Below, one piece after another: positions 1,865-25,420 of a stretch of DNA of 26,721 nt (position 1 is the first letter of the stretch; every line of letters starts with the position of its first letter). A model generated the notes under the pieces. The model saw nothing but the letters and a program-made list of their open reading frames with translations. It was not told the origin of the DNA and ran no database searches. This DNA is from Candidatus Omnitrophica bacterium CG02_land_8_20_14_3_00__42_8 (GTDB taxonomy: Bacteria; Omnitrophota; Gorgyraeia; Gorgyraeales; Gorgyraeaceae), in assembly GCA_002780805.1 (NCBI GenBank), contig PEUD01000002.1, positions 1 to 26,721 on the forward strand, written 5' to 3'. Made by a program: the position numbers and the translations under genes.

Positions 1865-3637
1865 TCACCATAACGCGATATCTGACATTTTTTTAAAAAC
1901 AATGTTATTGCTGCTGCATATATCTATTATTTCTTCATGCGAAGCGTCATTCATGGAAGGAATAGCCAAAAACAACTCGTCTATCTTGTATTTTTTTACA
2001 AGTTGAGGTATGTTATGCCTTGAACCTATTATCGGTACGCCATGTATATTTCTGCCATGTTTTTCTAAATTGTCGTCGATAAAACCAACAGGCATATAGC
2101 TTAATTTCCTATTGTACCTTATACCTCTTAACAGATATTCACCGGCATCGCCTGCGCCCATTATCAAAATCCTTTTGCCTGACTTAGAGTCGAAATTGAA
2201 ATATTCCCTGAACATCCTCATTACAAATCTTGCCCCGGAAGCGGCTGTCAACAACAACAGCCAGTCTATCACAAAGACCGCCCTGGAATAACCCTGTATA
2301 CGAAATAAAAATACCAATGCTATAATGGAGCTTATACAACTAAATGTAACCGCCTTGATAACATTAAAAAGATCATGAAATCCGGCGTATTCCCAAACTG
2401 CTTTATACAGGCCGAAACTGTAAAAAAAACTGAGCTTTATAATAATAATTATAGGTAACGACTCCACGATCAATTTTGCATTAACAGGTACAAGAATGCC
2501 TTCATACCTTAAAAGATAGGCGCCGACATAACTTGCGCTTATAATAAAAAGATCTATCATTATCTCAAACATCTTCTGTTTGTGATAAATCATACCGCCT
2601 AAAGATATATGATTGCCATTTGTATGTTTTTTAGGCTCTGCGGCATAGACTCTGACACGGCTTAAGAAAATACCAAAAAACAACATTAATAACGCGGCTG
2701 CCATAAACAAAACTATTACAGCCGTCACGTTTAATTTTGTATACGCAAAGGCTATCAACCCGCAACACAGGCTTATAAAATACAAAGTCAGCACTGCCCT
2801 GCGCTCTGACATACCCAAAACTACCAGCCTGTGAGATGTATGATCTTTCCCGCCGTCGTAAAAATGCCTGCCGCTTGCCCTACGATTTAAAGTAACTAGT
2901 ATGGTATCAAATACCGGCACCCCTAAAACCAATACAGGAACCGCCAGGGTGCCCAAAATATTGGATGTGCCCCGCCAGGTGCCCATAACACTTATCGCGG
3001 CTATTACAAAACCTATAAACATAGAACCGCAATCACCCATGAAAATCTTTGCAGGATTAAAATTATACCTTAAAAATCCTAAGGCAGCAGCCCCTAAAAT
3101 CAATCCTATCATAGCTGCGCTTGAACCCGCATGAAAACCGTAATGCACAAAAATTATCCCTGCCGATATCACGGTGATACCGGCGCACAAACCATCCATA
3201 TTATCTAAAAGGTTAAAAGCATTCATTATCGCGACAAACCAGAATATAGTGACAAATATATTAAGAAAATCCACCGGTAGCACTTTAAAGCTGATGCCAA
3301 AAATACACATAAATGTTGCTATGATAATCTGCGCAAAAAGCTTTGAATACGGTTTTATGCTGAATATATCGTCTATGAGCCCTGTTATAAATACAGCCGT
3401 AGAGCCTGCCAACAATGGAAAAAACAGGCTATTGCCCCTTTCGAAAATCAAAAACGATATAAAAAAAGATACGAATATCGCTATGCCGCCACATATGGGT
3501 ATAACCCGCTTGTTCCAACGGTCGTTTTTCGGCTTTGCTACAAAGTTATAACGCAGCGCCATCCTCCGGACCAACGGCGTCAAGAACAAAGATAAAAGCA
3601 ATGTTATTAAAAAAACCGGTAGATATTTTACTGCCAT
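1865..3637 (-). CDS. wecA: WecA/TagO-like UDP-HexNAc:undecaprenyl-phosphate HexNAc-1-P transferase fused to a CapD/PglF-type N-terminal membrane + CoA-binding-like Rossmann domain
   Basis: MraY/WecA motifs: GLIDD, NAFNLLDNMDGL, IFMGDCGS, DHTSHRL, with many TM segments (about aa 1-330). C-terminal part: DLFIISASYVGAYLLRY, FVIDWLL, KRILIMGAGDAG, PVGFIDDN, GVPIIG, matching the CapD/WbpM N-terminal module. No SDR catalytic domain follows. Confidence 0.85.
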   Translation of the reverse strand: MAVKYLPVFLITLLLSLFLTPLVRRMALRYNFVAKPKNDRWNKRVIPICGGIAIFVSFFISFLIFERGNSLFFPLLAGSTAVFITGLIDDIFSIKPYSKLFAQIIIATFMCIFGISFKVLPVDFLNIFVTIFWFVAIMNAFNLLDNMDGLCAGITVISAGIIFVHYGFHAGSSAAMIGLILGAAALGFLRYNFNPAKIFMGDCGSMFIGFVIAAISVMGTWRGTSNILGTLAVPVLVLGVPVFDTILVTLNRRASGRHFYDGGKDHTSHRLVVLGMSERRAVLTLYFISLCCGLIAFAYTKLNVTAVIVLFMAAALLMLFFGIFLSRVRVYAAEPKKHTNGNHISLGGMIYHKQKMFEIMIDLFIISASYVGAYLLRYEGILVPVNAKLIVESLPIIIIIKLSFFYSFGLYKAVWEYAGFHDLFNVIKAVTFSCISSIIALVFLFRIQGYSRAVFVIDWLLLLTAASGARFVMRMFREYFNFDSKSGKRILIMGAGDAGEYLLRGIRYNRKLSYMPVGFIDDNLEKHGRNIHGVPIIGSRHNIPQLVKKYKIDELFLAIPSMNDASHEEIIDICSSNNIVFKKMSDIALW

Positions 3638-10954: not shown

Positions 10955-11629
10955 TTATAAATTAAAAACATCCAAAAACAGCCTCCAGAAGAACAAATAT
11001 GCCTTTCTGTAAGTAGGCAACTTGGAAACGCCCCATTTTCTTTCATATTCATGAGTAGCTACCTCTGCGACCCTGTATTTCTTCTTAAGGCACTGCACTA
11101 TCATGTGCTGTTCAACATCAAAATTATTAGCCCTTAATTCAAGTTTCAATCCGACATCTCTTTTTACAGCCCTAAACCCGTTCAGGCATTCAGTGAGATT
11201 TACCTTCCATAGATAATTGATAATCAAGGTTAAAAGCCCCCCGCCAACGCTGCGCAAATACGTATCAATATCGCCTTTCCATTCATCGCTTCCGCCCTTG
11301 TGCCTTGAGCCTATCACCAAATCCGCCTCATTTTTCACTATTGGCTCTATCAACGCCGGAATCTGCGACGGATCATGGGAGCCGTCGGCATCCATAAAAA
11401 CAACTATATCCATTGCTGCTTCTTTTATGCCGACTTTATACGCATCCCCCTTGCCTTTTTTATTGTCAGAAACAACTTTGGCCCCCGCAGAAGAAGCGCA
11501 TTGGGAAGTTTTATCGCTTGAATGCCCGTCTACCACTATAATCTCGTCAGCAAAATTTTTTGCTGATTCTACCAGACGGGATATGCCGCCTTCTTCATTT
11601 TTAGCCGGTATTACCAATGAAACAGTCAT
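10955..11629 (-). CDS. GT2 glycosyltransferase, DPM1-like polyprenyl-phosphate sugar synthase (soluble, about 224 aa)
   Basis: MTVSLVIPAKNEE, VVDGHSSDKT, KKGKGDAY, FMDADGSHDP, DLVIGSR, LNGFRA, FDVE. Start placed at ATG 11629 (ATGA overlap with the upstream stop) rather than the track's 11641. Confidence 0.9.
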   Translation of the reverse strand: MTVSLVIPAKNEEGGISRLVESAKNFADEIIVVDGHSSDKTSQCASSAGAKVVSDNKKGKGDAYKVGIKEAAMDIVVFMDADGSHDPSQIPALIEPIVKNEADLVIGSRHKGGSDEWKGDIDTYLRSVGGGLLTLIINYLWKVNLTECLNGFRAVKRDVGLKLELRANNFDVEQHMIVQCLKKKYRVAEVATHEYERKWGVSKLPTYRKAYLFFWRLFLDVFNL

Positions 11630-12894
11630 AAGCGCCCGCACCTGGATCTATTAAAAAATATAACAGCTCCTATTCCCAGAAGAAACCAAAAATGCCGCAT
11701 GGTCAATATATCAACGCTGAAACCGGCTATCAAAAAAGCTATTACGCCTAACGCGATAATCCTGGCATCTCTTTTAAAAAAGGCATTTTTTATATTAAGC
11801 CATAGAAATAACAATGTGGCAAATAACCCCAATATGCCTGTTTCTGACGCCCACCCCAGATATGTGGAATGTGGATCTTTTGTCTTCCATTCAATATTAT
11901 CGGGGTCAGGCAGCACCTTTTTGGCTTTATCCCAATCCACATAATTAACAAGATTATAATTATACCTGCCAAGGCCCACGCCGACAACAGGATGGTCTTT
12001 CCACATCTTTAAAGCCGCCTCCGATAAAATCAGATATTCTGATTTTTGTGTATTTATTTTAAACGGCTTAAACTCTACCGGAAACACCCAGACAGCCAAG
12101 GTCATAAAAGATAATACAAGAAAAATACAGGCTAAAAATAACGCCGGTATCTTCAGCAAAATATATTTTTTCCCCGGATATAAAATAAATAAGCTCGAGG
12201 CGGCTAATAAAAATACGGGCCCGAGGATCCTGCTTTTAGTCAGCAAGGCTGTAAAGAGATGCAGCGATAATACAAAAATATAAAAACCATAATCCTTGGC
12301 CCGCGCCATCCTGCTTTTTATTATCATAAAAATAAACGTTATGCTTGTTATAAAATATGCGGCAAACATATTAGGATTTTTAAGCGTAGAGCTTGCCCTG
12401 AGATAAAATTGCGCCTGATGGGGAATGCTTGATATTTTGTCAACAGACTGTATTTGCGGCGTCAGGATATTCAAAGAACCTGAAAATAAACCTGCTATAT
12501 AGCCCAAAATCCCTATGACGCACACGACGCTGCTTACCAACACCCACACACGGATACACCTGCACAGATATTCATCTTCTTTTATTAATAATACGGCGGA
12601 AAAATACAGCGCTACTAAATACACTGTTGCCGCGTATTCTATAATTTCCCTGGAATCAAACCCGTTAAAAACCAAGGAAATAAAAAATGAGAACAATAAA
12701 AAAGCCGCGGGCAGCAAAAACGGCACGCTCATTTTATCTTTTGCTTTTATGTGTTCGTATATAAAAAATAACAAAAATACGACAAATAATACATCGCAAT
12801 ATTGTATCTTGCTCCCGATAAAAGGCAGTTCAGGGACCTTCATGACAGGCAGCAATATAATATAGAATAAAAACAGTATTTTACTGATTTTCAT
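11626..12894 (-). CDS. O-antigen ligase / Wzy_C family membrane protein
   Basis: About 10-12 hydrophobic segments; RASSTLKNPNMFAAY, LLTKSR, MWKDHPVVGVGLGRY, DPHSTYLGWASETGILG (the H..Y.....E.G..G motif of WaaL/Wzy_C). Confidence 0.85.
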   Translation of the reverse strand: MKISKILFLFYIILLPVMKVPELPFIGSKIQYCDVLFVVFLLFFIYEHIKAKDKMSVPFLLPAAFLLFSFFISLVFNGFDSREIIEYAATVYLVALYFSAVLLIKEDEYLCRCIRVWVLVSSVVCVIGILGYIAGLFSGSLNILTPQIQSVDKISSIPHQAQFYLRASSTLKNPNMFAAYFITSITFIFMIIKSRMARAKDYGFYIFVLSLHLFTALLTKSRILGPVFLLAASSLFILYPGKKYILLKIPALFLACIFLVLSFMTLAVWVFPVEFKPFKINTQKSEYLILSEAALKMWKDHPVVGVGLGRYNYNLVNYVDWDKAKKVLPDPDNIEWKTKDPHSTYLGWASETGILGLFATLLFLWLNIKNAFFKRDARIIALGVIAFLIAGFSVDILTMRHFWFLLGIGAVIFFNRSRCGRL

Positions 12895-12912: not shown

Positions 12913-14757
12913 TCAAATATAACCTTTCACCAGGTAATAGGCTATGCCTAAATATTCATGCATAATGGCTTTTATCTGCTCCAGCCTTACACCTCTGGAC
13001 CTGTCATAAAACTGGCTGTTACTGACAGGGGCATACACCACCCTGACACCGCGGCCTGATTTATCAAATACCGCCTTTGCCCTTCTCATATTATAAGGCG
13101 ACGTGACAAGTAAAACGGTTTTATAGTTATTCTTGTTCAGGATATTTTTTGAAAATATAACGTTTTCATAAGTGCTGTTTGCCTTTTCCTCTAAAATAAT
13201 ATCCTCTGCCGGCACACCCATAGAGAGAGCGAAAAGTTTCATGTTCTGGGCATCGTTGTATATATACGTGTATCCTGATGAAAATATCAACTTATTCGCG
13301 TACCCTTTGTTGCGCAATTCAACGGCATATCTGGCCCTCTCAATAGTACTCTTACCGGGGCTACCTGTTTCTCCGACCCCGCCTCCAAATACCACTATCG
13401 CGTCAGCCTTTTGCGGCATTTCAGAAATTCTTAAAGGGCTTGCCAAAAACCAGATAAAGGGCGTTGTAAACAGTAAAAAATAAACCAGCGCGCAAACAGC
13501 GCCGAAACGAAATACCTTTCTTCTGGCAACCCTGTAAAAATTAACCAGGTTTTCCTTCCACATGGCTTCCATATCCGTTGTTTTTCTCTCAATTTCAGCC
13601 TCTATCAAACTACTCATATTCTCTATGCGCGCCGCCCAGCTGTTCTGGCTGGCAACTTCTATTCTAACCCCTGCTAAAGAATCTTTATTTTCATTAACCG
13701 TTTGCGTAAGATATTTATCAAATTTCGCGCTGTCATCTGCTACATACACAACATTATTGTAAGTCCTGTTAAACGATATAACCTCAGGCAGGGATGTGGA
13801 TACAACCGCCTTACCCATTGCCAAATATTCATTTAATTTTGTCGGATAGACGTTTTTCGTATAATCAGTGATAGCGTACGGGATAATGCATGTATCAAAA
13901 TATTTGATGAATAGCGGCAGTTTCTGGTGGTCTTTTTTGCCCAGGAAATAAACATTCTTGAAAAGCGAAAACAGGGTTATATCAGTCTGCACAGGCCCTA
14001 TAAAAACAAAAGAATATTCCGGGTGCGCCTCTGCCAGGCCTTTCACCAGGCGCTGGTCGATCCATTTGTGCACACCGCCTATATAGCCGACTATCGGCTT
14101 TTTAATGCCAACCAGCTCCTCCGGCATCGGATCCTGCCCAAACAGGGCCTTCTGGAACTTGTCAAAATTTACGGCAAAAGGGAAACTATACACCTTGCTG
14201 TTATATTTAGAACAGTAGTTGTACAATTCCGCAGAGGTCACAAAAACCAAATCCGCTTTTTTTAACAATCTCTCTTCTGAGCGCTTTATCTTTTTAGCTG
14301 AAGCTGAACTGACGGCAAAACTATCAATACAATAATAAATAAATATTTTTTTCTTCAGATTATCCGCTATATCAAGACTTAAAGGGGTCGGCAAAAATGT
14401 CCATACGACAGGATCGCTGAAATTCATCGCCTTCATCCACTTTTCCAATGCGGAAAGGATTAAACGCCTGTTTATCCATCTTACAGCCCTGAGATAAGGA
14501 AACGGAAAAACCAACGGCGAAAATATATACAGGTTATGCGCCTCCTTATTTATACCCCTTGTCCCTTTAAACCAATTCTTAACCCTGTTTCTAATCCTGG
14601 AAAAATCTTTTATGCCCGGGGCCCTTACACCTGTATTTTCAATAAAAAGGACTCTATTGCCGTTTTTAGCAAGGTTGCTCATTATTTCCTGGTGCCCCTG
14701 CCATATAAAATCCCAATCTATGCTGGATATGCAGATAATGTCTTTATTTTTTAGCAT
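12913..14757 (-). CDS. Fusion: TuaH-like GT-B glycosyltransferase + single TM helix + YdcF/ElyC/SanA (DUF218) domain
   Basis: N-terminal: DIICISSIDWDFIWQGHQEIM, RVLFIEN, YYCIDSF, ADLVFVTS, VGYIGGV, FVFIGP, YPTKLNEYLAMGKAVVST. Hydrophobic stretch FGAVCALVYFLLFTTPFIWFLA. C-terminal: ADAIVVFGGG, RARYAVEL, LIFSSG, GVPAEDIILEEKANSTYENV, VLLVTSPYNMRRA, HEYLG. Confidence 0.87.
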   Translation of the reverse strand: MLKNKDIICISSIDWDFIWQGHQEIMSNLAKNGNRVLFIENTGVRAPGIKDFSRIRNRVKNWFKGTRGINKEAHNLYIFSPLVFPFPYLRAVRWINRRLILSALEKWMKAMNFSDPVVWTFLPTPLSLDIADNLKKKIFIYYCIDSFAVSSASAKKIKRSEERLLKKADLVFVTSAELYNYCSKYNSKVYSFPFAVNFDKFQKALFGQDPMPEELVGIKKPIVGYIGGVHKWIDQRLVKGLAEAHPEYSFVFIGPVQTDITLFSLFKNVYFLGKKDHQKLPLFIKYFDTCIIPYAITDYTKNVYPTKLNEYLAMGKAVVSTSLPEVISFNRTYNNVVYVADDSAKFDKYLTQTVNENKDSLAGVRIEVASQNSWAARIENMSSLIEAEIERKTTDMEAMWKENLVNFYRVARRKVFRFGAVCALVYFLLFTTPFIWFLASPLRISEMPQKADAIVVFGGGVGETGSPGKSTIERARYAVELRNKGYANKLIFSSGYTYIYNDAQNMKLFALSMGVPAEDIILEEKANSTYENVIFSKNILNKNNYKTVLLVTSPYNMRRAKAVFDKSGRGVRVVYAPVSNSQFYDRSRGVRLEQIKAIMHEYLGIAYYLVKGYI

Positions 14758-15811
14758 TTTTTAATATACCTATATATTTTTTTGCGTTAATCTCTGCTGA
14801 AAACATTTCCTCAACTGTTTTCCTGCCTGCAAGCCCGGTCGTCCTTCGCAAAGGCACATCCTCTATCAGCCTGGATAGTTTTTCAAACCACTGATCTTCT
14901 GTGGCAGCCAAAAAACCATTTTTCTCGTCTGAAATGAATTCATTGATCATCCCTACCGGAGAAGCTACGACAGGAACGCCTACTGACATATACTGAATGG
15001 CCTTAAAACCCGCCTTACCGTACGCCCACTGATTATCTATTAACGGATATATGCCTATGTCTATACTTTGAAAATCTTCGGCTTCTTTTTCCAGGCTCCA
15101 ATCGTAATTTTCAACTTTTACGCCAGGTACAGAGATATTTTGCTTTGCCCCTACAATCTTCAGAATAAAATCATATTTTGCGCTCAGCCTTTCCATAACA
15201 TTGAATATTATTTTCAGGTAAAAAGCTGTTGTTGGCGAACCTATCCAGCCTATGGTTAAGCGCTCTGATTTTTTTTCGGATACAAAAAACTTTTTAGTGT
15301 CTATTGGCGTAGGCAATATGTGAACCGAATTGTTAAATTTCCTTGCGTATTCCTCCAGAAACCTGTTGGCAACTATAACCACTGAAGACATTTTTATAAT
15401 TGCCCTGGTCTTAGATGGAAATTTCAAAAACCTGTAAAACCTGTTAACAGGGTTATAGTTCGGCAGAAAAATTGCATCGTCAAAATCAAAAATTATCGGC
15501 TTTCCCAACAAATGCATAATCCATTCAAAAACAGGCGGTCCGAACGGGCAGGCTTCACGGTGTATAAATACAACGTCATACCTGTGCGCCCTGATAATAT
15601 CCAAAAAACGTATCAAGATAGCTTTTATAAAATAATCTGTCTTTTTGCAAAAATTGCCCTTTACGTAAAGTATTCCATAAAATTTGTCAAAAGCAAACGG
15701 GCTGATATCATAATCTATATTTTCCGCTTTTAAATACGGAAAATACTGCTCCACCCTGAATCTATTGCTCGGGCCTTTTGAGGAATATGGCACTATAAAT
15801 AATACTTTCAT
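14744..15811 (-). CDS. GT4 family glycosyltransferase
   Basis: MKVLFIVPY, SNRFRVEQY, IIFDFDDAIF, IGWIGS, KAGFKAIQYMSVGVPVVASPVG. Confidence 0.92.
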   Translation of the reverse strand: MKVLFIVPYSSKGPSNRFRVEQYFPYLKAENIDYDISPFAFDKFYGILYVKGNFCKKTDYFIKAILIRFLDIIRAHRYDVVFIHREACPFGPPVFEWIMHLLGKPIIFDFDDAIFLPNYNPVNRFYRFLKFPSKTRAIIKMSSVVIVANRFLEEYARKFNNSVHILPTPIDTKKFFVSEKKSERLTIGWIGSPTTAFYLKIIFNVMERLSAKYDFILKIVGAKQNISVPGVKVENYDWSLEKEAEDFQSIDIGIYPLIDNQWAYGKAGFKAIQYMSVGVPVVASPVGMINEFISDEKNGFLAATEDQWFEKLSRLIEDVPLRRTTGLAGRKTVEEMFSAEINAKKYIGILKNAKK

Positions 15812-17031
15812 TTTGTGAGCTCGCTGTATATCCTGCGATAACTATCTGCGCCCATTTCCAGCGACAGATACTTCCGGGCTACTGCGCGGCACCTGCCTGC
15901 AAGGGTTTTACCTTCCTGCAACAATTCAAATAATTCTTTAATCTTATCCATGTATTCATTTTTATTGAAGTCTTTGATTACCACCCCTACGCGATTATCC
16001 CTGACCAGCTCCTCTGTATCTCCGATTCCGGAATTTATAATAACAGGCTTTCCGCAGGCTAAAAATTCGCCAAGCTTAATAGGGGATGACCCAAATTTTT
16101 TATACGGATTTATAAAAAATATGCCTGCGTCTGCGCAATTCAGTAAAACCGGTATCTCCTCATATAAGGGATGGATAAAATAGGCCTTTTGGCTGTCTAT
16201 ACTGATTTTCTTTTTGTTTAACACCTCTATATCATCCTGCGTCAAAATCAAAAATTTTAAATTCTGATTTTTGCCGGATGCGCATTCAAAAAAATCCATC
16301 ATTTCTTTTATTAAATAAAAAGTGCCCAGCTTGCCGGGATAGATAAACAGCATATCTGCCGTTATACCGTATTTTTTAAGCGCATCTTTCTTACGGATGT
16401 CGCTATAATCCCCGAATCTTTCCATATCAACGCAGCACGGTATAACAGATATGGAGATATTTTTGTCTTTAAAGTATCCTGTATCAGCGATACTGCTTCT
16501 GTGCTTTTCTGTCAGAACCACCACTGCATCGGTTTTACTGAACAGTTTTTTTTCTGCGGCCTTGACAAGGTTAAAAAACACCCCGGCTTCCTTCCACAGC
16601 CCGCCGCCTACGTATTCTTCTGCCAGGAGCCCCCTTGTGTCAAATATAAACTTAAACCCTAATATGCGCGGCAGAAATAAGGCTATAACTCCAGGCGTCA
16701 CGCCCCTTACATGGATAATCCCGAACCTATGCCTGGCCGCTAGATATAAAGATACAAAAAAACCTGTTATTACGTCAAAAAAAGTGGATATTTTATCGGG
16801 ATACTTGTGGTAAACAAGCCATTTCCAGGTAATCCCGTAATTTTTCAGCTCATCGCCTATACGTTTCAGCTCTCCAGGCGTATATTTCTCCAGGTCTTTC
16901 TTCTTTTCAAACGTCAGCAGGACAAATTTATACCCGTCTTTTGAAAGTATTTTAAGATAGGGCGTAACCTGTGATGGCAAAATACTTTCCAGCAGGCCGT
17001 TATAAGAAATGTAAAGGACCTTTTTATTCAT
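15808..17031 (-). CDS. GT4 family glycosyltransferase
   Basis: KVLYISYNG...SQVTPYL, IIHVRG, IFDTRGLLAEE, VIPCCVD, YPGKLG, SSPIKLGEFLACGKPVI. Confidence 0.9.
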   Translation of the reverse strand: MNKKVLYISYNGLLESILPSQVTPYLKILSKDGYKFVLLTFEKKKDLEKYTPGELKRIGDELKNYGITWKWLVYHKYPDKISTFFDVITGFFVSLYLAARHRFGIIHVRGVTPGVIALFLPRILGFKFIFDTRGLLAEEYVGGGLWKEAGVFFNLVKAAEKKLFSKTDAVVVLTEKHRSSIADTGYFKDKNISISVIPCCVDMERFGDYSDIRKKDALKKYGITADMLFIYPGKLGTFYLIKEMMDFFECASGKNQNLKFLILTQDDIEVLNKKKISIDSQKAYFIHPLYEEIPVLLNCADAGIFFINPYKKFGSSPIKLGEFLACGKPVIINSGIGDTEELVRDNRVGVVIKDFNKNEYMDKIKELFELLQEGKTLAGRCRAVARKYLSLEMGADSYRRIYSELTK

Positions 17032-18481
17032 GTAACGACCTGTATAAATCCCGCACTAATTTTATTGCTACGCCGCGAAACTGCGTAGCAAGCATTTTAA
17101 AAAGCCTTATTGGATTATTAAGATTATACTTGATGAAATAAAACAGGTTTATAGGCAGCACGGTTGATATCCTTGCTTTCATATACAGCCTTTCGAATCT
17201 TTTATGAGGCATGTCGGCATAATTAAAATTGAAGCCCTCAGGATCTCCTATGACGTCCCAGCTTGGAACCTGCATGCTTTTTTCCTTTAGCATCTTATAA
17301 ACCGAAGTCCCGGGCAAAGGCATAAACAGATTAAGGCTTATTGTGTTAGGGCGGACTTTCCATAAAAATTTTAACGTTTTATTGAAGTCTTCTTCTGTCT
17401 CCCCGGGGTAACCCGTAATAATATTGCCCTGAAATCTTAAGCCTGAGCTTCTGGTAATCCTAGCTGCCTGTATATTTTTCTCAACCTTAACATTTTTTCC
17501 CATTAGATCCAGTATTCTCTGCGATCCGGATTCAAAGCCGTATTCAACCTGCACGCATCCGGAATCCTTCATCATATCCAGCAATTCCCTGTCAACAATA
17601 TTAGTCCTTAACTGGGCAAACCATTTGATCTTTTTATTAAACTTGTTCTCCTTGAACAGCTCCATAAATTTTTGCGCGCGCGCCTTATCACTCAGAAACA
17701 TATCCTCCGCAAAATAAAGGCCTTCTATGGCATACATATCTATAAGCGTTCTTATTTCCTGCATAACGCGCTGGGGTGAATGAAAACGGACTTTTCTGCC
17801 GTAAAATAAAGGCCCTGCGCAGAAATTGCACTGGTAAGGGCACCCCCTGGCAGTAAATATGGATGTAGAGCGCAGGTTAAGGTTTCTGCTTATATACCTG
17901 CTTGGCCTGGTATAAAACTTCATATCCAATAAATGCCTTGCAGGCAAAGGCAGAGAATCCATGTCCTGAAATAGCGGCCTGTCTGCGTTACTGAATATCT
18001 GCCCTTTATCTCTGTAGGTTAACCCCGATATCAGATCAAAAGGCATGCCGCTTGCCAGATCAAGCATTGTAAATTCGCCTTCGCCTCTTACAACCCCATC
18101 AATATAATCGCAATCCTTCAATGTTGATTCAGGCTCTGCTGTAACATGCGGCCCGCCTGTAATTACTATTCTTTTCGGGTTATGCGATTTTACTATTTTG
18201 GCAACATAAAAAACATCCGATATTGTAGGAGTCGTGCCGCCTATACCAACAATATCCGAATTGATGCTTTCTATGGCTGCCTCTGTCTCTCTGTCAGCCC
18301 TGTCAAAATCCATGCTGTTTTTTCTAAGCAAGGCGTCTCTGTCAATTATATTGACCTTATGGCCGTTTTTTTCCAGGACTGCCGCAATATAAGCAAGGCC
18401 CAAAGGCGGCCAGTACTGCTTATTTTCATCTATAAGGCTTCTTGACCTTGATAATAAAGGGTATATTAAAGATACATTCAT
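17024..18481 (-). CDS. Cobalamin-binding domain radical SAM protein (class B) #2
   Basis: WPPLGLAYIAAVL, DIVGIGG, ITGGPHVT, VVRGEGE; TARGCPYQCNFC; YFAEDMF; YGFESGSQRIL; IITGYPGET; MPLPGT. Confidence 0.93.
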   Translation of the reverse strand: MNVSLIYPLLSRSRSLIDENKQYWPPLGLAYIAAVLEKNGHKVNIIDRDALLRKNSMDFDRADRETEAAIESINSDIVGIGGTTPTISDVFYVAKIVKSHNPKRIVITGGPHVTAEPESTLKDCDYIDGVVRGEGEFTMLDLASGMPFDLISGLTYRDKGQIFSNADRPLFQDMDSLPLPARHLLDMKFYTRPSRYISRNLNLRSTSIFTARGCPYQCNFCAGPLFYGRKVRFHSPQRVMQEIRTLIDMYAIEGLYFAEDMFLSDKARAQKFMELFKENKFNKKIKWFAQLRTNIVDRELLDMMKDSGCVQVEYGFESGSQRILDLMGKNVKVEKNIQAARITRSSGLRFQGNIITGYPGETEEDFNKTLKFLWKVRPNTISLNLFMPLPGTSVYKMLKEKSMQVPSWDVIGDPEGFNFNYADMPHKRFERLYMKARISTVLPINLFYFIKYNLNNPIRLFKMLATQFRGVAIKLVRDLYRSLHE

Positions 18482-24082: not shown

Positions 24083-25420
24083 TTATTTTCCCCTCGCTTG
24101 CAGTATTATTGCCAGTTTTTCCCTGATGCGCTGTATAAATCTTCTCATCTCAAGCATCCTGTAAAATTTGCGGTGCATGCTCCTAAGCTGTGCGCGCGAA
24201 AGGCGCTCTGATAATATTATGGCTTTTTCAAAGTTTTCCCTGAAATCCATCTTAAGGCACGACCAGTCCATTTCGTCTGAAACCAGGCCTCTTTTTTTGG
24301 CATAATCCCAGATAGGCGTCCCCGGAAATGGTGTCAGCACATAGACATCGGCATAATGCAGCTTATTTTTCTTTATAAAATTATACGTATCCATCATCGC
24401 GCGTTTTGTCTCAGTAGGATGGCCTATTACAAAACTGCCCACAACGCGTATGCCGGCGTTATTACACAGCCTGACTGCCCGGCGGTTATTCTCTACGCTC
24501 ACAGTCGCGCCCTTTAAATATTTCAACGACTCCGGATTGCCTGATTCCAAACCGCAAGTCACAAACTTTATTCCCATTTCTTTAAGTGCTGACACAATGT
24601 CCTCAGTAAGCAAGTTTGTCCTTATTGAAGCGCCAAATTCTACTTTTTTATCCAGCCCCTTTGATTTTATAAGCTCTTTGATTTTAAAAACTCTTTTTTT
24701 ATCCGCAATAAACAAATCATCCATAAAAAATATCTCTTTAACAGGGTAATTTTTAACCAGTTCCTCTATTTCAGAAACAACATATTCTGCGGAAAAAAAT
24801 CTGACGCGGTTAAAAAAGCGCGTAGAAGCGCAAAATACACAGTCATAAGGGCAGCCGCGCGAACTAAACACATAGGTTGTAGGCCCAATATCCATAAGAT
24901 CCCTTGCAGGCATAGGCAGATCATCCAGATTATTAATCAAAGGCCTTGAGACAGTTTGAACCAAACGGCCTTTATCCCGGAATATAATACCTTTTACTCC
25001 TGATAATACATTAACAGGCAGATCGCGATTCTCAAAATAAAGCTTTACCAGGTCAAAAAATGTTTCCTCGCCTTCCCCGAGAACGCCAACATCTGCTTCT
25101 GACGGCAATAAGTGAGGCAGCGAAGAAATATGTATGCCGCCCATAATTACCTTACAGCCTTTTTCTTTTGCCAGACGCGCATGACTCATTGCCAAATTAA
25201 AATTCTGCGATATCGTTGATATTCCTACAATATCCGGCTTAAAAGAATCTATCTGGCTTTCAATATCCTCATCTATAATCCTGCACTCTATATTAAGCTG
25301 GCCTGCGTTTTTCCTTAAGAAGCTGACGATATAGCCCAACCCAAGCGACGGATATTTGCAGAGCTTCATCTGCTGCTGATAGTCAAATGTATTTATAAAT
25401 AGAATTTTAATCGGCATCAT
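24083..25420 (-). CDS. Cobalamin-binding domain radical SAM protein (class B) #3
   Basis: YPSLGLGYI, PDIVGIS, IMGGIHIS, GVLGEGE; SSRGCPYDCVFC; FFMDDLF; GLESGN; SFVIGHPTET; TPFPGTPIW. Confidence 0.93.
   Translation of the reverse strand: MMPIKILFINTFDYQQQMKLCKYPSLGLGYIVSFLRKNAGQLNIECRIIDEDIESQIDSFKPDIVGISTISQNFNLAMSHARLAKEKGCKVIMGGIHISSLPHLLPSEADVGVLGEGEETFFDLVKLYFENRDLPVNVLSGVKGIIFRDKGRLVQTVSRPLINNLDDLPMPARDLMDIGPTTYVFSSRGCPYDCVFCASTRFFNRVRFFSAEYVVSEIEELVKNYPVKEIFFMDDLFIADKKRVFKIKELIKSKGLDKKVEFGASIRTNLLTEDIVSALKEMGIKFVTCGLESGNPESLKYLKGATVSVENNRRAVRLCNNAGIRVVGSFVIGHPTETKRAMMDTYNFIKKNKLHYADVYVLTPFPGTPIWDYAKKRGLVSDEMDWSCLKMDFRENFEKAIILSERLSRAQLRSMHRKFYRMLEMRRFIQRIREKLAIILQARGK

What the first reader, a model, noticed from the sequence alone, without database searches (positions are those of the whole stretch)
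12913..14757. Membrane-spanning fusion of a TuaH-like glycosyltransferase with a YdcF/ElyC/SanA (DUF218) domain
Seen: a GT-B domain (about aa 1-390), a charged linker, one hydrophobic helix preceded by RVARRKVFR (positive-inside), then a complete DUF218 domain. Known: ElyC and SanA are N-terminally anchored envelope proteins with periplasmic DUF218 domains, linked genetically to envelope integrity and undecaprenyl-phosphate-dependent pathways; their biochemistry is unresolved. Inference: one polypeptide places a cytoplasmic GT and a periplasmic DUF218 on opposite sides of the membrane. This is Rosetta-stone evidence that DUF218 acts on lipid-linked or exported glycan (tailoring, carrier recycling or sensing).
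Basis: partly seen in the sequence, partly recalled or inferred. Interest (0 to 1): 0.7.

Follow-up and report, generated by a model that had tools for sequence, protein, structure and literature searches.

The report
Glycosyltransferase fused to periplasmic DUF218/Upr domain
This is a real, widely conserved membrane protein that joins a cytoplasmic sugar-adding enzyme to a periplasmic DUF218 domain, a family newly reported to cut glycans off their lipid carrier, but this copy has lost one of the four catalytic residues.

Summary
It has a GT4-type GT-B domain (aa 1-373), a long charged helix, one TM helix (aa 417-442, strongly positive N-flank) and a complete DUF218 domain (aa 452-604, Pfam E 4e-28). 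It is not an assembly artefact: more than 240 distinct full-length homologues exist, and relatives occur in 417 places in species-representative genomes. These are mostly Omnitrophota, with some Acidobacteriota and one Nitrospinae, always inside polysaccharide gene clusters. The window's own genome carries a second fused paralogue and no stand-alone DUF218.

The new point is in the catalytic site. Most fusions keep that tetrad, but the window protein and its sub-clade have Asn in place of His. This change arose at least 15 times and is nearly always to Asn. After it, the catalytic Thr drifts. The window's domain is therefore probably a non-canonical or non-hydrolytic binder of lipid-linked glycan.

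First readers of this scan noted the same fusion in at least seven other genomes.

The parts
12913..14757 (-). Whole gene: 614-aa bitopic GT4-TM-DUF218 (Upr-like) fusion protein (P0001)
13639..14757 (-). aa 1-373: cytoplasmic GT-B glycosyltransferase domain. It is GT4-like, and TuaH is the nearest named model.
   Evidence: Pfam Glyco_trans_1_4 at cut-off. TuaH model at 113 bits against a cut-off of 550. Foldseek matches to MshA, PimA, BshA, WaaG and PglA. Invariant residues across the family include R45, R54, G224, G227, K307 and E310.
13510..13638 (-). aa 374-416: long charged helical stalk linking the GT to the membrane. It ends in RVARRKVFR.
   Evidence: The AF2 model has one continuous helix at 374-430. 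Sequence.
13432..13509 (-). aa 417-442: single transmembrane helix with predicted N-in, C-out orientation
   Evidence: Hydropathy peak of 2.1; N-flank 6 K/R, C-flank 2. Across 256 family members, mean K+R is 4.5 on the N-flank and 1.8 on the C-flank. The helix superposes on the TM anchors of SanA and ElyC.
12946..13404 (-). aa 452-604: DUF218 / Upr-like domain, predicted periplasmic
   Evidence: Pfam E 3.8e-28 over the full model length. The genome search reports the same coordinates. Domain model pLDDT 92.4. Foldseek matches to ElyC, SanA, YgjQ and YdcF.
13171..13173 (-). Thr529 codon. It is equivalent to the catalytic SanA T125, ElyC T165 and YgjQ T132.
   Evidence: Alignment A1; E. coli numbering checked; codon checked
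13090..13092 (-). Asn556 codon. It occupies the position of the catalytic His (SanA H149, ElyC H189, YgjQ H156).
13081..13083 (-). Arg559 codon. It is equivalent to the catalytic Arg and is invariant in the family.
12955..12960 (-). His600-Glu601 codons. Glu601 is equivalent to the catalytic Glu (ElyC E240) and is invariant. His600 is invariant in the Asn556 sub-clade.
11626..12894 (-). Downstream gene: 422-aa polytopic Wzy_C (O-antigen polymerase or ligase family) protein
   Evidence: Pfam Wzy_C E 6e-14
14744..15811 (-). Upstream gene: GT4 glycosyltransferase, overlapping the fusion's start by 14 nt
1865..3637 (-). Candidate pathway initiator in the same strand-run: polyprenyl-phosphate HexNAc-1-P transferase family (PF00953) with a CoA_binding_3 domain. 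It would make the C55-PP-sugar linkage.
   Evidence: Pfam Glycos_transf_4 E 1.6e-32

Best explanation
Shown: the gene encodes a single-pass inner-membrane protein. A GT4-type GT-B glycosyltransferase is joined by a rigid helical stalk and one TM helix to a DUF218 (Upr-like) domain. The protein sits in a lipid-carrier-dependent surface-glycan cluster that includes a PNPT initiator, many glycosyltransferases, a Wzy_C protein and a GT9 heptosyltransferase.

Inferred from topology rules and homology: the GT faces the cytoplasm and extends a C55-PP-linked oligosaccharide. The DUF218 domain faces the periplasm and engages the C55-PP end of the same glycan after it has been flipped.

For the fusion family at large, which keeps the Thr-His-Arg-Glu tetrad, the domain is most likely a pathway-dedicated C55-PP-glycan hydrolase. 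It would release or proofread the glycan and recycle the carrier, tethered to its own assembly line.

For the window protein and its sub-clade, the catalytic His is Asn and the catalytic Thr has become dispensable. I therefore infer that the canonical hydrolysis is lost or strongly altered. On this reading the domain works mainly as a binder of lipid-linked glycan in the same pocket, where Arg559, Glu601 and His600 stay invariant. It would hold, hand over or sense the carrier-linked intermediate and couple that to the cytoplasmic GT through the stalk.
For: - Architecture and folds.
- Conservation of the fusion.
- Topology: the positive-inside rule holds in 240 of 256 members. The TM helix plus domain superposes on SanA residues 2-197 and ElyC residues 40-251. 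Longer relatives add a methyltransferase or a second GT at the N-terminus.
- DUF218 as a C55-PP-sugar hydrolase with essential T, H, R and E: bioRxiv 10.64898/2026.10.14.759067. The T/H/E triad is also needed for SanA function in PMC12176290.
- Tetrad in the window protein: T529, N556, R559, E601.
- Tetrad in 242 distinct fusions. The His was replaced in at least 15 independent changes, and 135 of 138 non-His residues are Asn. Thr is kept in 103 of 104 His-type rows but is lost in 60 of 138 non-His rows. In independent pairs, Thr loss follows His loss in about 6 of 11 pairs and never the reverse (p about 0.03). R559 and E601 are invariant.
- The domain is as conserved as the GT domain within the Asn clade.
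- Context is always polysaccharide genes.
Against: - No experiment exists on any member of this fusion family.
- Topology is predicted only.
- His-to-Asn is not His-to-Ala. Asn could still hydrogen-bond the diphosphate, and the window protein itself keeps Thr529, so residual or modified hydrolysis is possible.
- The tree is a FastTree of sequences sampled around the query, so the counts of changes are approximate.
- The AF2 inter-domain arrangement is uncertain (pTM 0.66). I could not inspect side-chain geometry, for example whether His600 reaches the site.
- The donor and acceptor of the GT are unknown.
Confidence: 0.5

Rival explanations
1. The window protein is still an active C55-PP-glycan hydrolase (release or proofreading factor), like ElyC/UprB. 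Asn556, perhaps helped by the invariant His600 next to Glu601, would replace the canonical His.
For: - Thr529, Arg559 and Glu601 are present.
- The domain is under strong conservation.
- His600 is present in 136 of 138 non-His556 rows.
- The replacement is almost always Asn, which suggests selection for a functional side chain.
- The cluster has a PNPT initiator that would make the C55-PP-HexNAc bond that UprB cleaves (preprint).
Against: - Alanine at any of the four residues abolishes UprA activity.
- In the Asn clade the catalytic Thr is replaced by Ala, Ser, Val, Ile or Asn in 60 of 138 rows, which is hard to square with the same chemistry.
- The link between Asn556 and His600 has no independent phylogenetic support (p = 1).
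Confidence: 0.33
2. Both domains are cytoplasmic. The DUF218 part is YdcF-like (a soluble SAM-binding type), and the hydrophobic helix only anchors or dips into the membrane.
For: Like YdcF, the protein lacks the catalytic His. YdcF 3CA8 is the only solved structure matched. JGI annotations call relatives 'SAM-binding protein YcdF'.
Against: - A 26-residue hydrophobic helix has a strong K/R excess on its N-side only, and this is conserved family-wide.
- Membrane-anchored ElyC, SanA and HI_1701 models match better than YdcF, and their TM helices are included in the superposition.
- The NCBIfam ElyC model is the best DUF218-side hit.
- Most fusions keep the full periplasmic-type tetrad.
Confidence: 0.05
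3. The fusion is an assembly or gene-calling artefact that joins two genes.
For: None was found. The contig is from a fragmented, 75%-complete MAG.
Against: The same end-to-end architecture and length occur in more than 240 distinct proteins from many independent assemblies, including closed chromosomes. A second fused paralogue sits on another contig of the same genome.
Confidence: 0.01

Closest known systems
ElyC / UprB (E. coli b0920), a DUF218 = Upr-like C55-PP-glycan hydrolase
   Same: A membrane anchor is directly followed by a DUF218 domain. It is the closest E. coli paralogue (30% identity over the domain). The ElyC model is the best DUF218-side NCBIfam hit, and Foldseek gives E 1.5e-8 and TM 0.68. 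Thr, Arg and Glu align. ElyC is associated with a Wzy-type, C55-PP-HexNAc-initiated glycan pathway.
   Different: ElyC has two TM helices and no cytoplasmic enzyme domain. The window protein scores 30 bits against an equivalog cut-off of 205, and its catalytic His189 equivalent is Asn.
SanA / UprA and YgjQ / UprC (E. coli)
   Same: They have the same N-in single TM helix followed by a periplasmic DUF218 domain. The model of aa 400-614 (its residues 8-212, i.e. about aa 407-611 of the protein) superposes on SanA 2-197.
   Different: Identity is 18%. The SanA model scores 15-18 bits against a cut-off of 363. These proteins have no fused GT and keep the full Thr-His-Arg-Glu tetrad.
YdcF (E. coli, PDB 3CA8)
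   Same: It shares the DUF218 fold and is the only solved relative (E 4e-6). It also lacks the catalytic His.
   Different: YdcF is soluble and cytoplasmic with no TM helix. It also lacks the Thr. It is reported to bind SAM, and its function is unknown.
TuaH (B. subtilis teichuronic acid GT) and GT4 retaining GT-B enzymes (MshA, PimA, BshA, WaaG, PglA)
   Same: They share the GT-B fold. TuaH is the best NCBIfam model for aa 149-383 (E 1.6e-32). The genomic context is a lipid-linked polymer pathway.
   Different: The score is 113 bits against the TuaH cut-off of 550. The N-terminal 150 residues do not match the TuaH model. None of these enzymes carries a TM helix and a periplasmic domain.
His-type GT-DUF218 fusions in Omnitrophota, Acidobacteriota and Nitrospinae (for example L031, L055, L065)
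   Same: They have the same architecture and length at 29-57% identity and sit in the same kind of clusters.
   Different: They keep the canonical Thr-His-Arg-Glu tetrad. About 40% of all the fusion loci examined, His- and Asn-type, have a DUF4330 gene nearby (usually directly downstream), which the window's genome lacks.

Membership tests
DUF218 / Upr-like (PF02698) | Match to the Pfam DUF218 model above the gathering score | tested here: met
   98.5 bits against 27.6, covering model positions 1-133 of 133 at aa 452-604
DUF218 / Upr-like (PF02698) | Rossmann-like alpha/beta fold shared with YdcF, ElyC and SanA | tested here: met
   Domain model pLDDT 92.4. Foldseek gives ElyC E 1.5e-8, SanA E 1e-7 and YdcF 3CA8 E 4e-6.
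DUF218 / Upr-like, periplasmic type | Membrane anchor directly before the domain, with the domain in the periplasm | tested here: inconclusive
   The TM helix and positive-inside rule predict an N-in, C-out orientation. The TM helices superpose on those of SanA and ElyC. No experimental topology exists.
DUF218 / Upr-like, catalytic type | Conserved Thr-His-Arg-Glu catalytic cluster (preprint 10.64898/2026.10.14.759067) | tested here: not met
   The window protein has T529, N556, R559 and E601, so the His is replaced by Asn. Asn is found in 116 of 122 close relatives.
DUF218 / Upr-like, catalytic type | Hydrolysis of the C55-PP-sugar phosphoacetal bond | not testable with these tools
   Needs an enzyme assay on lipid-linked substrates
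ElyC equivalog (NF007794) | Score above the NCBIfam equivalog cut-off | tested here: not met
   29.5-32.4 bits against a cut-off of 205
SanA equivalog (NF008092) | Score above the NCBIfam equivalog cut-off | tested here: not met
   15-18 bits against a cut-off of 363
TuaH equivalog (NF047676) | Score above the NCBIfam equivalog cut-off over the full length | tested here: not met
   113 bits against a cut-off of 550, and only aa 149-383 match
GT4-type GT-B glycosyltransferases | GT-B two-Rossmann fold and the Glycos_transf_1-type C-terminal domain | tested here: met
   Foldseek gives MshA E 2e-16, with PimA, BshA, WaaG and PglA also matched. Pfam Glyco_trans_1_4 scores 27.0 against a cut-off of 27.0.
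GT4-type GT-B glycosyltransferases | Canonical E-x7-E donor-binding motif | tested here: inconclusive
   Read from the sequence by eye: E310 is invariant, but the residue 8 positions before it is Asn302, so the first Glu of the motif appears absent. No structure-based alignment was made.
YdcF-type cytoplasmic DUF218 | Soluble protein without a TM segment | tested here: not met
   One strong TM helix lies directly before the domain

The most novel reading that the evidence does not exclude
The Asn556 sub-clade, which includes both copies in this genome, has turned a lipid-carrier hydrolase into a non-hydrolytic periplasmic sensor or holder of C55-PP-linked glycan. This module would control the fused cytoplasmic glycosyltransferase through the 57-residue stalk-and-TM helix. 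The result would be a one-polypeptide trans-membrane feedback device that matches cytoplasmic glycan assembly to the periplasmic carrier load. The conversion evolved repeatedly, with at least 15 His-to-Asn changes.
Probability: 0.15. Interest if true: 0.8.

Novelty: new variant of a known kind. Interest (0 to 1): 0.45.

Why it matters
The Upr-like (DUF218) family has just been proposed as the long-sought set of enzymes that release envelope glycans from undecaprenyl diphosphate. An open point in that work is how paralogues with overlapping in-vitro activity stay pathway-specific in vivo. A large natural family in which the periplasmic domain is covalently tied to a cytoplasmic glycosyltransferase of one gene cluster gives one answer, namely physical tethering to the assembly line. 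It also gives an experimental handle, because one protein reports on both faces of the membrane.

The recurrent His-to-Asn replacement, followed by drift of the catalytic Thr, is a natural mutagenesis series. It can test the proposed mechanism and may reveal non-hydrolytic DUF218 functions. In Omnitrophota the fused form is the main full-length DUF218 protein, and 90 of 150 sampled genomes have no DUF218 match at all. This bears on the claim that the family is near-universal.

Tried and rejected
- Sequence searches of the PDB with the protein and with a family profile of the C-terminal part found nothing significant. Only a fold search found YdcF.
- The search for related loci with the most diverse alignment, A3, failed because no stretch was conserved enough. 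It worked with the smaller alignment A4.
- The listing of cluster members gave no organism names for distant fusion clusters. Taxonomy was taken from record titles instead. Titles such as 'uncultured Planctomycetia' or 'Eubacteriales' are automatic labels and were not checked.
- I looked for split forms, meaning a stand-alone TuaH-like GT next to a TM-DUF218 gene, around nine stand-alone DUF218 genes of the phylum. No GT homologue lay within about 6 kb. The stand-alone proteins whose motif I read are ordinary N-terminally anchored forms, and most keep the canonical His. There is thus no split-gene support in this sample.
- The downstream neighbour is not conserved. It is Wzy_C in the window but an unrelated PMT_2 protein in Ca. 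Gorgyraea.
- A link between Asn556 and His600, which would suggest migration of the catalytic residue, has no independent phylogenetic support (p = 1).
- DUF4330 adjacency does not separate His-type from Asn-type fusions (26 of 56 against 5 of 21).
- I found no paper describing the GT-DUF218 fusion.
- I did not run complex prediction, read mapping or the metagenome scans. Conservation already answers the artefact question, and no binding claim is made.

Full report
**The observation.** The minus-strand ORF at 12913-14757 is a single 614-aa frame. It lies within an unbroken run of minus-strand genes that fills the 26.7-kb window. Pfam finds a complete DUF218 domain at aa 452-604 (E 3.8e-28) and a group-1 glycosyltransferase C-domain at aa 222-346, exactly at the cut-off. 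NCBIfam's best models are TuaH for aa 149-383 (113 bits against a cut-off of 550) and ElyC for the C-terminal part (about 30 bits against a cut-off of 205). Hydropathy shows one strong peak at about aa 417-442. The 19 residues before it hold six K/R and one acidic residue, and the segment after it holds two of each.

An AlphaFold2 model built on 56 homologues (pLDDT 86.9) shows a GT-B fold, then one helix running from aa 374 to 430 with a kink at the TTP motif and continuing to aa 442, then an alpha/beta domain. Foldseek places the N-terminal part among GT4 retaining enzymes: MshA, PimA, BshA, WaaG and PglA. A separate model of aa 400-614 (pLDDT 92.4) matches the predicted structures of ElyC, SanA, YgjQ and HI_1701, with their membrane helices included in the superposition. 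It also matches the crystal structure of YdcF.

**Not an artefact.** A word-indexed search found more than 120 full-length proteins of 613-617 aa at 58-76% identity, all carrying both Pfam domains. Those with names come from Candidatus Omnitrophota. An exhaustive search of 50%-identity representatives found dozens more full-length clusters down to 29% identity, as well as stand-alone GTs of about 390 aa.

In species-representative genomes, 417 stretches encode a relative. The best 80 are nearly all end-to-end fusions; three are cut short by a contig end. They come mostly from Omnitrophota, including closed chromosomes, with some from Acidobacteriota/Vicinamibacterales and one from Nitrospinae.

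The window's own genome is 1.14 Mb and 75% complete. It has exactly two DUF218 matches, and both are GT fusions. The second (P0122, 65% identical) sits on another contig in a second polysaccharide cluster with a Wzx-type flippase. In a sample of 150 genomes of the phylum, 60 have a DUF218 match. Most strong full-length matches lie in frames of 614-714 aa, which is the size of the fusion.

**Context.** The window encodes a surface-glycan assembly line. It includes:
- a GT9 heptosyltransferase;
- a PF00953 polyprenyl-phosphate HexNAc-1-P transferase;
- an epimerase/dehydratase and an AsnB-type amidotransferase;
- methyltransferases;
- three B12-radical-SAM enzymes;
- several GT4 and GT2 enzymes;
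- two PMT_2 (GT-C) proteins;
- a Wzy_C protein directly downstream of the fusion.

In 77 related loci the immediate neighbours are also polysaccharide genes, but they vary. The gene directly downstream carries DUF4330 in 24 of 65 loci. DUF4330 is a small N-terminally anchored domain of unknown function. It was not found in the window's genome. Longer relatives add a second GT, a methyltransferase or a CE4 deacetylase at the N-terminus.

**Topology.** Across 256 family members there is typically one hydrophobic segment, at about two-thirds of the length. The mean K+R count is 4.5 in the 15 residues before it and 1.8 after it, and the N-side exceeds the C-side in 240 of 256. A nucleotide-sugar-dependent GT-B must face the cytoplasm (established knowledge). 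The TM-plus-domain unit has the same layout as SanA, ElyC and YgjQ, which are predicted to have periplasmic domains (PMC3879167; PMC12176290). The opposite-sides arrangement is well supported as a prediction. It has not been shown experimentally.

**What DUF218 does.** A bioRxiv preprint of 15 October 2026 (10.64898/2026.10.14.759067) reports that SanA (UprA), ElyC (UprB) and YgjQ (UprC) hydrolyse the bond between undecaprenyl diphosphate and the first sugar. ElyC acts on the C55-PP-GlcNAc unit shared by ECA and O-antigen. [quoted passage not shown] An earlier paper also found the Thr/His/Glu triad essential for SanA function.

The preprint contains neither the word 'fusion' nor 'fused'. No paper I searched describes the GT-fused architecture.

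**The catalytic site.** I aligned the domain with the four E. coli paralogues and checked the published residue numbers. The window protein has Thr529, Asn556, Arg559 and Glu601, so the His is replaced by Asn. Its paralogue has the same replacement.

In 122 close relatives, position 556 is Asn in 116 and His in 6. Position 529 is Thr in 71, Ala in 41, Ser in 5, Val in 3 and Ile in 2. Arg559, His600 and Glu601 are invariant. In 47 distant fusion clusters the canonical residues dominate: Thr in 42, His in 42, Arg in 47 and Glu in 47.

On a FastTree of 242 distinct fusions, the His was replaced in at least 15 separate changes, and 135 of 138 replacements are Asn. Thr is kept in 103 of 104 His-type rows but lost in 60 of 138 non-His rows. 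In phylogenetically independent pairs, Thr loss accompanies His loss in about 6 of 11 pairs and never goes the other way (median p about 0.03). Because T125A abolishes UprA activity, the Asn-type domains are unlikely to run the canonical reaction.

These domains are nevertheless as conserved as the GT domain, so they retain a function in the same pocket. His600 next to Glu601 might compensate for the lost His. The association has no independent phylogenetic support, and I could not inspect the side-chain geometry.

**Mechanism.** For the fusion family as a whole, I think the likeliest role is a pathway-dedicated C55-PP-glycan hydrolase tethered to one of its pathway's cytoplasmic glycosyltransferases. 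That would explain how Upr-like paralogues stay pathway-specific, which is a question the preprint leaves open.

For the window protein I give about 0.5 to a non-canonical role, either non-hydrolytic or much altered: holding, handing over or sensing the carrier-linked glycan. I give about 0.33 to retained hydrolysis. A cytoplasmic YdcF-like reading gets about 0.05, and an artefact about 0.01.

**Standing.** This is a new variant of a known kind. The domain family and its chemistry are known as of the preprint. The fused architecture is present in databases under generic names such as 'ElyC/SanA/YdcF family protein'. First readers of this scan have noted it in at least seven other genomes. What this report adds is the breadth of the family, the predicted trans-membrane coupling, and the recurrent degeneration of the catalytic tetrad in the clade that holds the window gene.

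Noticed in passing
window:19811-22153 (-): A 780-aa ORF joins an N-terminal PMT_2/PMT (GT-C, polyprenyl-phosphate-sugar-dependent) membrane domain to a C-terminal radical SAM plus SPASM domain. This is an unusual fusion of a periplasm-facing glycosyltransferase with a cytoplasmic-type Fe-S enzyme.
   Followed up: no
window:9524-10939, 17024-18481, 24083-25420 (-): Three B12-binding radical SAM enzymes are interleaved with glycosyltransferases in the same operon. Related loci and the paralogue's cluster also carry them. This was also flagged by another first-reader note (e1-5302816).
   Followed up: no
window:1865-3637 (-): A 590-aa protein joins a PF00953 (MraY/WecA-type) phosphoglycosyl transferase domain to a C-terminal CoA_binding_3 domain. 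It is the likely initiator of the lipid-linked glycan.
   Followed up: no
L008:4708-6561 (G000 contig C109): This is a second GT-TM-DUF218 paralogue (617 aa, 65% identity, also Asn at the His position). It sits in another cluster with a Wzx-type flippase, a B12-radical-SAM enzyme, a CE4 deacetylase and a methyltransferase. No stand-alone DUF218 was found in this 75%-complete genome.
   Followed up: partly
L031:6008-6508 and 30 other loci among L009-L088: A DUF4330 gene (PF14221) lies near the fusion in 31 of 77 related loci, usually directly downstream on the same strand. The example read (L031, 166 aa) has an N-terminal TM helix. It may be a periplasmic partner. It was not found in the window's genome.
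   Followed up: partly
G148:C1:88131-88541, G079:C16:25875-26294, G127:C6:23471-23680 and about 25 others: Partial DUF218 matches (model positions about 1-104) lie inside giant open frames of about 1,000 to 39,687 aa in other Omnitrophota genomes, mostly family f25. Given the new lipid II and C55-PP-glycan hydrolase activity of DUF218, these could be cell-envelope-attacking modules of giant proteins.
   Followed up: no
L052:6585-9833, L072:2227-5247, P0127: Longer forms of the fusion add a methyltransferase (1082 aa), a CE4 polysaccharide deacetylase (1006 aa) or a second GT4 domain (995 aa) at the N-terminus.
   Followed up: partly
L008:6618-7454 (+): A partial ORF, cut by the contig end, shows a Transketolase_N match at aa 8-132 followed by an HRDC domain at aa 210-276. 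This is an odd combination.
   Followed up: no
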